Position numbers and translations under genes: made by a program
The notes under the pieces: generated by a model
What the model saw: the letters and a program-made list of their open reading frames with translations, nothing else
Databases searched by the model: none
Told to the model about the DNA's origin: nothing
Part shown: positions 24,210-27,358 of the stretch, piece by piece
Layout: the number at the start of each line of letters is the position of its first letter
How positions within the stretch are numbered: position 1 is the first letter of the stretch
DNA from: Moraxella nasicaprae
Lineage (GTDB): Bacteria > Pseudomonadota > Gammaproteobacteria > Pseudomonadales > Moraxellaceae
Direction: 5' to 3'
DNA: 32,000 bases
Assembly: GCF_025643275.1 (NCBI RefSeq)
Contig: NZ_CP089977.1
Span: forward strand, 1,980,001-2,012,000

Positions 24210-24350
24210 ATGCAAGTACTAAGTTCACTAAAATCTGCCAAAAACCGCCATGAAGACTGTCAAGTGGTGCGTCGTCGTGGTCGTATTTTTGTGATTTGCA
24301 AAAGTAATCCACGCTTTAAAGCGGTGCAAGGCTACAAGAAAAAGCGTTAA
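24210..24350 (+). CDS. ykgO: 50S ribosomal protein L36, type B (zinc-independent paralog)
   Basis: [46 protein letters not shown] is nearly identical in pattern to E. coli YkgO ([46 protein letters not shown]). RBS AAGGAGGG. The 77-aa ORF starting at 24117 is an upstream read-in. Confidence 0.9.
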
Positions 24351-24394: not shown

Positions 24395-24426
24395 AACCCC
24401 CGATTTAAATTGGGGGTTTGTTTTTG
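24395..24426 (+). terminator. Rho-independent terminator after ykgO
   Basis: AACCCCC (24395-24401) / GGGGGTT (24412-24418), followed by TGTTTTT. Confidence 0.7.
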
Positions 24427-24471
24427 ATGGATTATCGGTGTATTGTTCACATTGATGTGGCGAAGATGGAT

Positions 24472-24505
24472 AAAAAATAAAAGCACCCCAACTTGGCGTG
24501 CTTTT
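24472..24505 (-). terminator. Rho-independent terminator after the NGT-like gene
   Basis: AAAGCAC (24479-24485) / GTGCTTT (24498-24504). An A-rich tract upstream on the plus strand gives a T tract on the minus strand. It lies 10 nt downstream of the stop at 24515. Confidence 0.55.
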
Positions 24506-24514
24506 ATGGTTGAA

Positions 24515-26554
24515 TTAGGCATCGGTTTTTTTAGGTCTGCCTACCTTCTTTTTTGGTGCTTCATCGGTGGCGACTTTTTTGGGTCTGCCTACCTTCTTTT
24601 TTGGTGTATCTGCTGTCTTGGTGTCAGCTGTTTTTTTGCGAGTGCTTTTTTTGGCTGGCAGTTTAATGTCGCTGACATCAACACCATTTTTATCCGCCCA
24701 AGCGTGTAGTTTTTCAACAAAGGCTCGTCCCATCGGGCTAGGGTCGCCACTAAATAGCGTCTGCAAGCCGTTGTTATCGATGATTTGGCGACGAAGTGCA
24801 AGGCGTTCCTCGTGGTTTTCAGCCAAACGAATCACTCGCTGTACATATTCATCGACTGTATTGGCAATCAGCCATTCTGGCAAGCCCAAACGCTTAAACA
24901 AGCCTTCGTCAATGTGTTCATGAACCTCATCGCCTGTTTTACAAACACCAACCAAGCCCAGCGTGACCATGTCAATGATGCCATTGGTATTGCCAAATGG
25001 GAACGGATTGACCAACAAGTCGCAGTTATGCAAAGTAATGAGGTAATCTTGATAAGGCGAATGTGGGTGAGCTGTGGCAGAATCGCCTAAATAGCTCTTA
25101 ATAAATCGCTCAACATAAGGGTGCGTCACCCCCATTGACTGACCCAAAGCAAAGTGATAATGAATCTTGACTTTGGCGGTGTCACGAATGACACGCAAGG
25201 CATTTAGGAAATAAGGGTTTAGCTTCATGGTGGTGGAAGCAATACCAATGTTCACTACTTCTGGATTTTCACGAAGTTTATAATCAACTTTTGTTGGAGC
25301 AAGTGCTGATGGCACATAAGGTAGTGCATCTTTTGGCAAACGAATCAATTCTTCGCTAAAACATTCTTCTAAGCCAACATAATCATCTTCAACAATCACA
25401 TATTCGATGAATTCAGAATGCGTCGTACCAGGGTGTCCCAGTGCAACTGCTTGGATTGGAGCAAGGCGAGTGTTGCTGGCAAAAATCGTGGTCAAATCCA
25501 TGCCAATGCTTGGCATGTACAAAATGGCAGGTTGTACTTTGTCGCAGACATCACGAATGGCTTGAAGTTTGCTAATCACGCCTTGGTTTGAATCTGGCAA
25601 TTTGTGAAATTCATCAAAAACTTCTCTACCTAAGGCATCAACATACTCACTACCAATGCCAATGATATAAAAATGCTCTCGTGCAGCTATCATTGATGTT
25701 GAATGCGTACGATAGATGGAATGTATGGAATTAAAATGTTCTAATACCACAACCATCACAGGTTTGCCATTGATACGACCAATACTATTAACATTTCTAT
25801 CTTGCCAGTTAAGATGTGTAACAAGATAAGAGCGAATCAGTGCGTTTACGCCTTTTTTGACATCGTGTTTATTTTTGGCAGTGTCATAGCTGCAATGCAT
25901 ATATACATCATGAGTGATGTTTGAAGGAAGATTGGCTAATGAGTCTATTTCTTTTAACTTATTGGGCAGCCATTGCAGAATTGCCGCACGCTTACTGAAT
26001 GCGGCATCAGTCCCGATAAAGCGAGGGGACTGCAGGGCAAAACATAAAGAAGCACAAAGATTTTTATCGACCGCCCACAGGGCATCAAGACTGATTGAAA
26101 TTTCAGATTCTGGCAAATATAAAATACAAAATTTAATCAGCGTTGATTGTTTGTTATCAAGGATAAAATTATTTTTGTCTGATTTGTCAGGATTGATATT
26201 ATAGGTTTGCAAAATGTGGTCAGCATTAACATAAGGTGAGCTGGCAAAAATCAACGAAATCCAACGCTGATGTGCCAAAATACGAACCGCACCTGATTGT
26301 GAAATGATAAGTTCTGGATCGGTGAAAAGCTGAGTGATGGCTACTGCCATGCGAGTACAAAAATATACTGTCTGTTCGTTTGGTAGATTGGTCAGCGATT
26401 CAGGATAATCAATCTTAATGCCTTGAAGATTACCAAAATTGGCATCTAGTTTAATTAAAATATTAAGAAGCTCGCCACAGGCTTCCTCGTATTTTTTTTC
26501 TGCAACCAAAGTTTCAAAATACAATACGCTTGGCATGGTTTGAGGTTCTGACAT
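24515..26554 (-). CDS. HMW1C/NGT-family cytoplasmic protein N-glycosyltransferase (GT41) with a lysine-rich AT-hook-like C-terminal extension
   Basis: 679 aa. RBS AAGGA. Residues from about 10 to 620 are colinear with my recollection of Actinobacillus pleuropneumoniae NGT / Haemophilus HMW1C. Shared blocks include VYFCTRMA, SLIFASSPYVNADHILQTYN, LIKFCILYLPES, CASLCFALQSPRF, DVYMHCSYDT, HSIYRTHSTSMIAAR, YMPSIGMD, RLAPIQAVALGHPGTTHSEFIEYVIVEDDYVG, LRLPKDALPYVPSALAP and NPFPFGNTNGIIDMVTLGLVGVCKTG. The last 55 aa or so (KLPAKKSTRKKTADTKTADTPKKKVGRPKKVATDEAPKKKVGRPKKTDA) are additional. Confidence 0.8.
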   Translation of the reverse strand: MSEPQTMPSVLYFETLVAEKKYEEACGELLNILIKLDANFGNLQGIKIDYPESLTNLPNEQTVYFCTRMAVAITQLFTDPELIISQSGAVRILAHQRWISLIFASSPYVNADHILQTYNINPDKSDKNNFILDNKQSTLIKFCILYLPESEISISLDALWAVDKNLCASLCFALQSPRFIGTDAAFSKRAAILQWLPNKLKEIDSLANLPSNITHDVYMHCSYDTAKNKHDVKKGVNALIRSYLVTHLNWQDRNVNSIGRINGKPVMVVVLEHFNSIHSIYRTHSTSMIAAREHFYIIGIGSEYVDALGREVFDEFHKLPDSNQGVISKLQAIRDVCDKVQPAILYMPSIGMDLTTIFASNTRLAPIQAVALGHPGTTHSEFIEYVIVEDDYVGLEECFSEELIRLPKDALPYVPSALAPTKVDYKLRENPEVVNIGIASTTMKLNPYFLNALRVIRDTAKVKIHYHFALGQSMGVTHPYVERFIKSYLGDSATAHPHSPYQDYLITLHNCDLLVNPFPFGNTNGIIDMVTLGLVGVCKTGDEVHEHIDEGLFKRLGLPEWLIANTVDEYVQRVIRLAENHEERLALRRQIIDNNGLQTLFSGDPSPMGRAFVEKLHAWADKNGVDVSDIKLPAKKSTRKKTADTKTADTPKKKVGRPKKVATDEAPKKKVGRPKKTDA
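24534..24606 (-). repeat. In-frame tandem duplication (48-nt period) encoding PKKKVGRPKK, two copies
   Basis: GGTCTGCCTACCTTCTTTTTTGGTG occurs at 24534-24558 and again at 24582-24606, a 25/25 match on the plus strand. On the coding strand it encodes the GRP-core AT-hook-like motif. Confidence 0.9.
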
Positions 26555-26926: not shown

Positions 26927-27358
26927 ATGAAAAAAATCGCATTAGCGTCAGTAGTCGCTGCTTTGGTTGCAGGCTTGACAGCGTGTAACAATACCCCAGC
27001 AGCCAGCGAAGTGGTACTACCAAAAAGCCAAAACAACACCGCTGTTGTCAATCAACCAGCGGCAAATACTGCCGTCAACTCACATGCAGTTGCCAACCAA
27101 ATCAGCCCAATTTCAAGCCTTGCCAATGCTCGTGATGAAAGCATGGTTCGCTTGCAAGGCAAAGTGGTGCGTGCCTTGCCAGATGAAAAATACGAATTTG
27201 CTGATGCCACAGGCACGGTCATTGTGGAGATTGACCACGAATTATGGATGGGTCGTGCCATCACGCCAAATGATGTGATTACTATTGTTGGCGAGGTTGA
27301 TGTTGAATATCGTCCAACCAAACAAGTCATCATCGATGTTCAAAGCATTGAGTTTTAA
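26927..27358 (+). CDS. YgiW/YdeI-family OB-fold (BOF) stress-tolerance lipoprotein
   Basis: 143 aa. RBS GGAG. Lipoprotein signal MKKIALASVVAALVAGLTA|C. The C-terminal OB-fold block is VRLQGKVVRALPDEKYEFADATGTVIVEIDHELWMGRAITPNDVITIVGEVDVE, which fits the YgiW pattern (V.l.G.i...l..d.Y.F.D.tG.i.veID...w). Confidence 0.8.
   Translation: MKKIALASVVAALVAGLTACNNTPAASEVVLPKSQNNTAVVNQPAANTAVNSHAVANQISPISSLANARDESMVRLQGKVVRALPDEKYEFADATGTVIVEIDHELWMGRAITPNDVITIVGEVDVEYRPTKQVIIDVQSIEF

What the first reader, a model, noticed from the sequence alone, without database searches (positions are those of the whole stretch)
24515..24700. Duplicated AT-hook-like KKKVGRPKK tail fused to the glycosyltransferase
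Beyond the point where, as I recall them, NGT/HMW1C proteins end, this ORF continues for about 55 residues: KLPAKKSTRKKTADTKTADTPKKKVGRPKKVATDEAPKKKVGRPKKTDA. The PKKKVGRPKK unit occurs twice and is encoded by a 25/25-identical nucleotide repeat with a 48-nt period (24534-24558 and 24582-24606), which suggests a recent in-frame duplication. A G-R-P core flanked by K/R is the AT-hook minor-groove DNA-binding motif, and it also resembles a monopartite nuclear localisation signal. Fusing a nucleic-acid-binding or polyanion-binding tail to a cytoplasmic protein glycosyltransferase is unusual. The tail could tether the enzyme to the nucleoid, to ribosomes, to RNA or to the membrane. The coding strand also carries A6-A7 lysine-codon runs (T7 at 24631-24637 and 24646-24652 on the plus strand), which could make tail length or frame variable between strains.
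Basis: partly seen in the sequence, partly recalled or inferred. Interest (0 to 1): 0.65.

Follow-up and report, generated by a model that had tools for sequence, protein, structure and literature searches.

The report
AT-hook tail on Moraxella N-glycosyltransferase
A Moraxella protein-glycosylating enzyme ends in a real, floppy, positively charged tail with two copies of a DNA-binding-type "AT-hook" motif. Most close relatives of the enzyme also have a lysine-rich tail, so only the motif itself is special to this lineage.

Summary
ORF 24515-26554 (-) encodes a 679-aa UDP-glucose:protein N-glucosyltransferase (NGT). Its last ~55 residues are a basic tail containing PKKKVGRPKK twice, made by an in-frame 48-nt duplication (31/32 nt identical).

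- **The tail is not unusual for NGTs.** In a sample of bacterial species, 46 of 57 distinct NGT C-termini carry a Lys-rich extension (median 47 aa, net +13.5).
- **Only the G-R-P motif is lineage-specific.** It occurs in this Moraxella species (two copies in all 4 sequences) and in a related species (one copy, conserved inside an otherwise unalignable tail).
- **AT-hook membership is borderline.** Pfam AT_hook scores 16.8 bits in the full protein and 20.9 for the tail alone, against a cut-off of 17.4. The core is VGRP, not RGRP.
- **The same octapeptide recurs elsewhere.** It appears in metagenomes on a NusG, a sigma-70, a TetR, an integrase and a ClpC-like ATPase.
- **No phase variation was seen.** Neither copy number nor frame varies among the four sequences.

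The most likely function, which is inferred and not shown, is a disordered polyanion or nucleic-acid tether that localises the enzyme. This is a modest new variant of a known kind.

The parts
24515..26554 (-). ngt CDS, 679 aa: UDP-glucose:protein N-beta-glucosyltransferase (HMW1C-like), including stop codon TAA at 24515-24517
   Evidence: ORF list. NCBIfam NF049992 equivalog scores 1164.5 bits against a cut-off of 1000, over residues 8-620. Pfam finds HMW1C_N, HMw1_D2 and GT41. phmmer to ApNGT 3q3e gives 1019 bits over residues 3-622.
24686..26554 (-). Catalytic body, residues 1-623 (all-alpha domain plus GT-B fold). It is acidic: pI 5.8, net charge about -14.5.
   Evidence: Extent of the alignments to the solved NGT structures and to the NGT model. 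The last predicted helix is 606-623. Charge.
24518..24685 (-). C-terminal tail, residues 624-679. Over residues 626-679 (54 aa) it has 16 K and 3 R, pI 10.3, net charge about +12 and no Asn. It is predicted to be disordered.
   Evidence: Sequence. Composition. AlphaFold pLDDT is 27-32 for residues 637-679, with no secondary structure after residue 623.
24575..24604 (-). AT-hook-like motif 1, PKKKVGRPKK (residues 651-660). This is the copy that aligns with the single hook of the related species.
   Evidence: Pfam AT_hook hit at residues 652-663. It aligns with KPKRKVGRPKKV of P0006 and L002, with synonymous differences.
24527..24556 (-). AT-hook-like motif 2, PKKKVGRPKK (residues 667-676), the duplicated copy, followed by TDA and the stop codon
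   Evidence: Direct repeat 24527-24558 / 24575-24606, 31/32 identical, period 48. In the protein alignment it occupies the position of the terminal basic patch PAKKPATRRKK of P0006.
24526..24652 (-). Three A7 lysine-codon runs (24526-24532, 24631-24637, 24646-24652) and several A6 runs. They follow from AAA/AAG lysine coding. No length variation was seen.
   Evidence: Census of runs and simulated +/-1 slips. Run lengths are identical in L001.
24468..24507 (-). Terminator-like hairpin (15-bp arms at 24477-24491 and 24493-24507) followed by a T-run on the coding strand, starting 7 nt after the stop codon
   Evidence: Inverted repeat I1 and the sequence itself. It is conserved in L001. The simple terminator scan did not list it.

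Best explanation
**What is shown**
- The tail is a genuine, translated, intrinsically disordered polycationic C-terminal extension of a cytoplasmic N-glucosyltransferase in a Moraxella species.
- It is the local version of an extension that most members of the close NGT clade carry: Lys/Thr/Ala/Pro-rich, about 40-90 aa, net charge around +13. The tail-less model enzymes happen to lack it.
- In the Moraxella lineage the tail carries a short conserved motif, P-K-[KR]-K-V-G-R-P-K-K-V. In this species a 48-nt in-frame duplication doubled it, and the duplication is found in every sequence of the species examined.

**What is inferred**
- The tail does not take part in catalysis, because tail-less NGTs are active enzymes.
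- It acts as an electrostatic tether to a polyanion, most probably nucleic acid. Lysine runs would give non-specific affinity, and the two G-R-P hooks would insert into the minor groove of AT-rich DNA or into structured RNA.
- This would concentrate the enzyme on the nucleoid, or in the zone where transcription and translation are coupled. There the unfolded Asn-x-Ser/Thr sequons of nascent adhesin precursors are accessible before folding and export.
For: **NGT identity and end of the fold:**

**Tail real and terminated:**

**Tail disordered:** pLDDT is 27-32 and no secondary structure is predicted after residue 623.

**Tail widespread:** nearly all of the top 120 homologues are 662-690 aa with Lys-rich ends. 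In a scan of one genome per species, 46 of 57 distinct NGT C-termini are basic extensions, with median length 47 aa and median net charge +13.5. Tails are essentially absent from distant HMW1C-like proteins below 50% identity.

**Constraint on the motif:**
- A related species keeps KPKRKVGRPKKV. It is syntenic with the window through the BOF-family neighbour gene (79% aa identity).
- Over the 11 codons of the motif there are three synonymous changes and one K/R change, while the rest of the tail is unalignable.
- Other clades keep short motifs of their own inside their tails: KKSAVKSE and SPLKxAxxKLKK. This argues that the tails are functional.

**AT-hook character:** Pfam AT_hook scores 20.9 bits for the tail alone and 16.8 in the full protein, against a cut-off of 17.4. 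Exact KKVGRPKK is found in more than 120 metagenome stretches. Among those checked were a NusG (three copies), a sigma-70, the N-arm of a TetR, a NikA-like relaxosome protein and an integrase tail, all of them nucleic-acid-binding proteins.

**Precedents from abstracts listed:** lysine-rich tails modulate DNA binding in mycobacterial Ku (PMC3553676) and actinobacterial TopA (PMC7398561). The H1-like protein AlgP is associated with polyphosphate granules (PMC9239181).
Against: - No binding or localisation data exist, and nothing here tests the partner.
- The core is V-G-R-P, not the canonical R-G-R-P. The Pfam score in the context of the whole protein is just under the gathering cut-off.
- Most NGT tails have no G-R-P at all. 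Whatever the tails do in general cannot depend on an AT-hook and may be purely electrostatic; membrane, polyphosphate or an acidic substrate would all fit.
- The same octapeptide also ends a ClpC-like ATPase, which is not a DNA-binding protein.
- Only two lineages carry the hook, so the conservation argument rests on a single interspecies comparison.
- The AlphaFold model is mediocre (mean pLDDT 68, 12-sequence alignment).
Confidence: 0.5

Rival explanations
1. Membrane tether. The polybasic tail binds anionic phospholipids of the inner membrane. This places NGT next to the Sec translocon, where adhesin precursors pass through unfolded.
For: NGT substrates are exported adhesins (abstract of PMC10507012, listed). 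The tails share charge rather than sequence across genera, which suits a non-specific electrostatic target. Several other clades end in SPLKxAxxKLKK, which might form an amphipathic helix (the helix is my inference).
Against: The window tail has almost no hydrophobic or aromatic residues to insert into a bilayer (composition). Conservation of a G-R-P motif, also found on a NusG, a sigma-70 and a TetR, has no obvious role in lipid binding.
Confidence: 0.15
2. Intramolecular or substrate-directed charge device. The +12 tail balances or folds back on the acidic body for solubility or autoregulation. Alternatively it captures acidic stretches of adhesin substrates and so increases processivity.
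For: The body has pI 5.8 and net charge -14.5; the tail is +12, so the whole protein is close to neutral. A preprint reports semi-processive hyperglycosylation by NGTs (bioRxiv 10.1101/2020.09.10.281741, abstract).
Against: Tail-less NGTs (Aggregatibacter, Necropsobacter, H. haemolyticus and ApNGT) have similar bodies and function without a tail. The semi-processive behaviour was described for enzymes that have no tail (which enzymes those were is my recollection, not shown). The AlphaFold model shows no docking of the tail, but the model is poor.
Confidence: 0.15
3. Functionally neutral low-complexity extension. The A-rich 3' end drifts and expands by replication slippage, and the AT-hook resemblance is incidental.
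For: Tail sequences are extremely divergent and vary in length between genera, and several lineages have lost the tail. The duplication itself is a slippage-type event.
Against: The basic extension persists across many genera with similar length and charge. Short motifs are conserved inside the tails, including the hook between two Moraxella species despite synonymous changes. All four sequences of this species keep frame and length.
Confidence: 0.15
4. Phase- or length-variable tail. Slippage in the A7 runs switches the tail between a form with hooks and a form without.
For: Three A7 and several A6 runs lie in the tail. Every simulated +/-1 slip leaves the catalytic domain intact and changes or removes the hooks.
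Against: Run lengths and frame are identical in the window and L001, and the tail is equally long in all four proteins of the species. From my own knowledge, A7 is shorter than typical phase-variable homopolymer tracts. The runs are what AAA/AAG lysine codons produce in a 43% GC genome.
Confidence: 0.03

Closest known systems
Characterised cytoplasmic N-glycosyltransferases: ApNGT (PDB 3q3e), Aggregatibacter aphrophilus AaNGT (8p0o), H. influenzae HMW1C
   Same: About 70% identity across the whole catalytic body. The domain set is the same (HMW1C_N, HMw1_D2, GT41-like GT-B), and the protein scores above the NCBIfam equivalog cut-off.
   Different: These enzymes end at the last helix of the fold. 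The window protein continues for about 55 basic residues with two AT-hook-like motifs. In Pasteurellaceae ngt sits directly downstream of rimO; in this Moraxella it does not.
Tailed NGT orthologues of H. parainfluenzae, H. ducreyi, Rodentibacter, Ursidibacter, Bibersteinia trehalosi and Mannheimia glucosida
   Same: A disordered-looking, Lys-rich C-terminal extension of similar length and net charge, attached at the same point of the fold.
   Different: None has a G-R-P core. They carry other short conserved motifs (KKSAVKSE; SPLKxAxxKLKK). The H. ducreyi tail contains four N-x-S/T sequons, whereas the window tail contains no Asn.
AT-hook motif (Pfam PF02178; HMGA-type minor-groove binding motif)
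   Same: A G-R-P core flanked by K/R on both sides, in tandem copies within a disordered region. It scores at about the Pfam cut-off. The identical octapeptide occurs on prokaryotic and phage nucleic-acid-binding proteins.
   Different: Val replaces the Arg that precedes Gly in the canonical R-G-R-P. The host protein is a glycosyltransferase, not a chromatin or transcription protein. DNA binding is untested.
Lysine-rich, histone-H1-like tails on bacterial proteins: mycobacterial Ku PAKKA repeats (PMC3553676), actinobacterial TopA lysine repeats (PMC7398561), Pseudomonas AlgP (PMC9239181)
   Same: A low-complexity polycationic C-terminal appendage on an otherwise globular protein. In those cases it is reported to tune DNA or polyanion association (abstracts listed).
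   Different: Those proteins already act on DNA or polyphosphate and use regular PAKKA/KPAA-type repeats. Here the carrier is a protein-modifying enzyme and the tail has no such regular repeat apart from the duplicated hook.

Membership tests
NGT (UDP-glucose:protein N-beta-glucosyltransferase, NCBIfam NF049992; HMW1C-like) | Full-length match to the curated equivalog model above its cut-off | tested here: met
   1164.5 bits against a cut-off of 1000; residues 8-620 match model positions 2-613 of 614.
NGT (UDP-glucose:protein N-beta-glucosyltransferase, NCBIfam NF049992; HMW1C-like) | N-terminal all-alpha domain plus a GT-B (GT41-like) catalytic domain, alignable end to end with solved NGT structures | tested here: met
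   Pfam HMW1C_N (E 3.9e-42), HMw1_D2 (3.2e-42) and Glyco_transf_41. ApNGT 3q3e gives 1019 bits over residues 3-622 and AaNGT 8p0o gives 1008 bits.
NGT (UDP-glucose:protein N-beta-glucosyltransferase, NCBIfam NF049992; HMW1C-like) | Transfers hexose from a UDP-sugar to Asn in N-x-S/T sequons of cytoplasmic substrates | not testable with these tools
   Needs an enzyme assay or glycoproteomics.
AT-hook (Pfam PF02178) | Invariant G-R-P core | tested here: met
   Two copies, at residues 656-658 and 672-674 within PKKKVGRPKK.
AT-hook (Pfam PF02178) | Basic residues flanking the core on both sides | tested here: met
   KKK-V-GRP-KK in both copies.
AT-hook (Pfam PF02178) | Canonical R-G-R-P, that is an Arg immediately before Gly (definition from my own knowledge of HMGA-type hooks) | tested here: not met
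   The residue before Gly is Val in both copies, and also in the related species P0006.
AT-hook (Pfam PF02178) | Score at or above the Pfam gathering cut-off (17.4 bits) | tested here: inconclusive
   16.8 bits (E 0.0056) in the full-length protein. 20.9 bits (E 0.00028) when the 49-aa tail is scanned alone.
AT-hook (Pfam PF02178) | Binds the minor groove of AT-rich DNA | not testable with these tools
   Needs EMSA, footprinting or NMR with the peptide.
Histone-H1-like / PAKKA-type lysine-repeat tails (Ku, HupB, TopA, AlgP) | Regular short Lys/Ala/Pro repeats (PAKKA, KPAA and similar) in tandem | tested here: not met
   The only repeat is the 16-codon duplicated hook unit; Tandem Repeats Finder and the repeat search found nothing else. 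Composition over 54 residues is K 16, T 7, A 6, D 6, P 5.
Histone-H1-like / PAKKA-type lysine-repeat tails (Ku, HupB, TopA, AlgP) | Strongly basic, disordered terminal appendage | tested here: met
   pI 10.3 and net charge +12. pLDDT 27-32 with no secondary structure.
Phase-variable gene (simple-sequence contingency locus) | Repeat tract length differs between isolates and switches the reading frame | tested here: not met
   The A7 and A6 runs and the frame are identical in the window and L001, and the tail is equally long in all four proteins of the species. The sample is small.
Classical monopartite nuclear localisation signal on a secreted effector | K-K/R-x-K/R basic cluster together with a route out of the bacterium into a host cell | not tested
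   PKKK and RPKK fit the basic cluster by eye. No search for secretion signals was run. NGTs are described as soluble cytoplasmic enzymes (abstract of PMC10507012).

The most novel reading that the evidence does not exclude
Polycationic C-terminal tails are an overlooked and widespread functional module of the NGT clade. In Moraxella the tail is sharpened into tandem AT-hooks. The module would dock cytoplasmic N-glycosylation onto the nucleoid, mRNA or ribosome compartment, so that adhesin precursors are glycosylated co-translationally. That would be a bacterial cytoplasmic analogue of the coupling between translation and N-glycosylation at the eukaryotic ER. The model enzymes used for structures and glycoengineering lack the tail and would miss this layer.
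Probability: 0.15. Interest if true: 0.6.

Novelty: new variant of a known kind. Interest (0 to 1): 0.33.

Why it matters
NGTs are studied as adhesin-maturation factors of respiratory and oral pathogens, and as tools for cytoplasmic glycoengineering. All structural work uses tail-less enzymes.

If the basic tails localise the enzyme or recruit substrates, they would help explain how a soluble enzyme finds unfolded sequons before export. They could also be exploited, or would need to be removed, in engineered systems.

I found no mention of these tails in the searchable literature. That is absence of evidence only.

The specific Moraxella feature, two AT-hook-like motifs, is a small lineage-level elaboration of this. 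It is of moderate interest and is not a new kind of system.

Tried and rejected
- **Tail-only protein searches.** The first two attempts failed on input limits. A 40-aa query gave 21 candidates and none with E <= 10. An 83-aa C-terminal query gave only three weak AT-hook proteins and did not even recover the NGTs. These searches say nothing about how common the tail is.
- **Genome-contig scan.** It returned 80 loci, all at 72% identity or less. The window's own species was not among them. The organism was inferred instead from cluster mates named "Moraxella sp.".
- **Terminator scan.** It did not list the hairpin after ngt. The hairpin is visible in the inverted-repeat output and in the sequence.
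- **Link between tail and gene context.** rimO lies directly upstream of ngt in Pasteurellaceae whether or not a tail is present (63 tailed and 8 tail-less loci). There is no correlation.
- **Structure prediction.** The model was poor overall (mean pLDDT 68). I used it only to say that the tail has no predicted structure, and ran no fold search.
- **Phase variation and the "recent, strain-specific duplication" idea.** Both were rejected on the four-sequence comparison.
- **NLS / host-targeting reading.** No supporting evidence was found. It was not pursued.
Full report
**1.

The minus-strand ORF 24515..26554 encodes 679 residues ending ...KLPAKKSTRKKTADTKTADTPKKKVGRPKKVATDEAPKKKVGRPKKTDA. The two PKKKVGRPKK units are encoded by a direct repeat, 24527-24558 and 24575-24606. 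It is 32 nt long, 31/32 identical and has a 48-nt period.

Beyond the 32 nt, the two copies still share ACCGATG once a 6-nt (Val-Ala) gap is allowed for. The duplicated unit is therefore roughly APKKKVGRPKK(VA)TD(E)A.

A 15-bp hairpin (24477-24507) followed by a T-run begins 7 nt after the TAA stop.

**2. The protein is a bona fide NGT and the tail lies outside the fold**

NCBIfam NF049992, the equivalog model for UDP-glucose:protein N-beta-glucosyltransferase, scores 1164.5 bits against a cut-off of 1000 and covers residues 8-620. Pfam finds HMW1C_N, HMw1_D2 and GT41. ApNGT (3q3e) and AaNGT (8p0o) align across residues 3-625 at more than 1000 bits and then end.

An AlphaFold model from a 12-sequence alignment is mediocre (mean pLDDT 68). 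Its last helix is at 606-623, and residues 637-679 have pLDDT 27-32 with no secondary structure.

The body is acidic (pI 5.8, net -14.5). The tail is strongly basic (54 aa, 16 K and 3 R, pI 10.3, net about +12) and contains no Asn.

**3. Organism and population**

The genome is a ~2.1-Mb, 43% GC Moraxella species. Cluster mates of its Mfd and NGT proteins are named "Moraxella sp.".

Three further NGT sequences from the same species exist (P0002/L001, P0279 = WP_303119226.1, and P0280). All have two hooks and the same tail length.

Only L001 was compared at DNA level. Its tail region is 97% identical to the window, with identical homopolymer lengths and the same CCC/CCT difference between the two repeat copies. 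The duplication therefore predates the split of these two strains. It is present in every sequence of the species seen so far, and there is no evidence of copy-number or frame variation.

Simulated +/-1 slips would remove the hooks and spare the enzyme, but no such variant was seen.

**4. The tail as such is not special to this lineage**

Of the 120 best homologues, essentially all are 662-690 aa long and end in Lys-rich sequence. They include H. parainfluenzae, Rodentibacter and Ursidibacter.

A scan of one genome per species gave 80 loci. Among 57 distinct C-termini, 46 have an extension of at least 12 aa with net charge of at least +5. The median length is 47 aa and the median net charge is +13.5.

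Tail-less enzymes are the minority: Aggregatibacter, Necropsobacter, Caviibacterium, H. haemolyticus and a second Ursidibacter copy. ApNGT, in the PDB, is also tail-less.

Tailed orthologues include those of H. ducreyi and Bibersteinia trehalosi. Both species are listed as NGT sources in PMC10507012, which does not mention a tail.

Distant HMW1C-like proteins below 50% identity almost never have a basic tail. The tail is thus a trait of the close NGT clade. It is present regardless of the conserved rimO-ngt linkage in Pasteurellaceae.

**5. What is lineage-specific is the G-R-P motif**

Among all the tails inspected, only the window species (two copies) and P0006/L002 (one copy) have a G-R-P. 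L002 is a related species. Its NGT is 68% identical, and its upstream BOF-family gene is 79% identical to the one at window 26927-27358.

In an alignment of the tails, KPKRKVGRPKKVVDD lines up with PKKKVGRPKKVATDE, while the surrounding tail is unalignable. At the DNA level the 11 shared codons differ by three synonymous changes and one Lys/Arg change.

That pattern suggests purifying selection on the motif, but it rests on one interspecies comparison.

The second hook of the window species sits where P0006 has a plain basic patch, PAKKPATRRKK.

**6. Is it an AT-hook?**

Pfam AT_hook gives 16.8 bits for the full protein, just below the 17.4 cut-off. It gives 20.9 bits for the tail alone. The core is V-G-R-P rather than R-G-R-P. 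Membership is therefore borderline.

Among the 77 complete ORFs of at least 60 aa, the motif lies within 30 residues of the N-terminus in 31 and of the C-terminus in 15.

The host proteins checked by Pfam were:
- a NusG with three copies;
- a sigma-70;
- the N-arm of a TetR;
- a NikA-like relaxosome protein;
- the C-tail of a tyrosine integrase;
- a ClpC-like AAA+ ATPase ending ...KTKKKVGRPKKVATV.

The motif is thus a common, portable terminal arm, found mostly but not only on nucleic-acid-binding proteins.

**7. Mechanism**

Shown: the tail is a real, disordered, polycationic extension. It is widespread in the clade and has lineage-specific conserved short motifs.

Inferred:
- The tail is dispensable for catalysis.
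- It tethers the enzyme electrostatically to a polyanion.
- For the Moraxella form, nucleic acid is the most likely partner because of the conserved hook.
- This would place the enzyme near nascent, unfolded adhesin precursors.

I put about 0.5 on this overall: high for the descriptive part and roughly even for nucleic-acid binding. The rivals are:
- membrane binding near the Sec translocon (0.15);
- charge balancing or substrate capture (0.15);
- neutral low-complexity drift (0.15);
- phase variation (0.03).

**8. Comparison with what is known, and verdict**

The enzyme is an ordinary NGT. Lysine-rich tails that tune DNA or polyanion binding are known on bacterial Ku, TopA and AlgP (abstracts), and AT-hooks are a known motif.

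The combination with a protein N-glycosyltransferase appears not to have been commented on. So does the fact that most close NGT orthologues carry a basic tail that the model enzymes lack. This is absence of evidence only.

I classify the finding as a new variant of a known kind and score its interest at about 0.33.

Noticed in passing
window 25508-26554 (-), compared with L001: The ngt gene is a mosaic between strains of the same species. The first ~1050 nt (codons 1 to ~350: the all-alpha domain and the start of the GT-B fold) are only 70-76% identical to L001. The 3' half, the tail and about 9 kb of flanks are mostly 94-100% identical. P0002, P0279 and P0280 share the other allele. This suggests recombinational replacement or diversifying alleles of the acceptor-facing half of the enzyme.
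   Followed up: partly
window 24210-24350 (+): A 46-aa ribosomal protein L36 (rpmJ-like) gene lies between purF and ngt, convergent with ngt. It has its own terminator-like hairpin at 24395-24418.
   Followed up: no
L003-L082 (Pasteurellaceae) compared with window, L001, L002 and L044: In Pasteurellaceae ngt sits directly downstream of rimO in 71 of 74 such loci (L003-L082 and L203) whose NGT C-terminus could be located. In Moraxella (between a BOF-family gene and rpmJ/purF) and in a Neisseria MAG it is not linked to rimO. Given ~70% protein identity across families, this suggests horizontal acquisition.
   Followed up: partly
L006, L007, L008, L011, L057, L079; L003, L010, L018, L036, L043 and others: The Lys-rich tails of other NGT clades contain conserved short motifs of their own. 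SPLK[DE]A[AV]xKLKK sits at the extreme C-terminus in Actinobacillus indolicus, Ursidibacter, H. parahaemolyticus and H. paracuniculus. KKSAVKSE is shared by H. parainfluenzae and Rodentibacter.
   Followed up: no
L072 ([Haemophilus] ducreyi), NGT tail: The H. ducreyi NGT tail contains four N-x-S/T sequons (VNKT three times, TNKS once). These are potential self-glycosylation sites. Most other tails, including the window's, avoid Asn.
   Followed up: no
L087, L095, L103, L124, L129, L135, L143, L149 and others (metagenome contigs): Of the 120 KKVGRPKK hits, 21 belong to one family of tiny ORFs, MP.GKGTYGKKVGRPKKK..., most of them 22-37 aa. This is an apparently widespread and extremely basic micro-protein.
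   Followed up: no
L144 (metagenome contig JAEEGF011736048.1), 859-aa ORF: A ClpC/ClpB-like AAA+ ATPase (Clp_N, AAA, AAA_2, ClpB_D2-small) ends in an H1-like tail...KKARAKKTPAKKTAEAKTKKKVGRPKKVATV. This nearly matches the window hook plus its following VAT residues. It is a second case of this arm on an enzyme that does not bind DNA.
   Followed up: partly
L066 (Conchiformibius sp. MAG), NGT tail: This NGT has a 79-aa extension that is acidic and Ala/Thr/Glu-rich. It turns basic only in the last ~15 residues (…RRNQKKGGKKRR), unlike the uniformly basic tails elsewhere.
   Followed up: no
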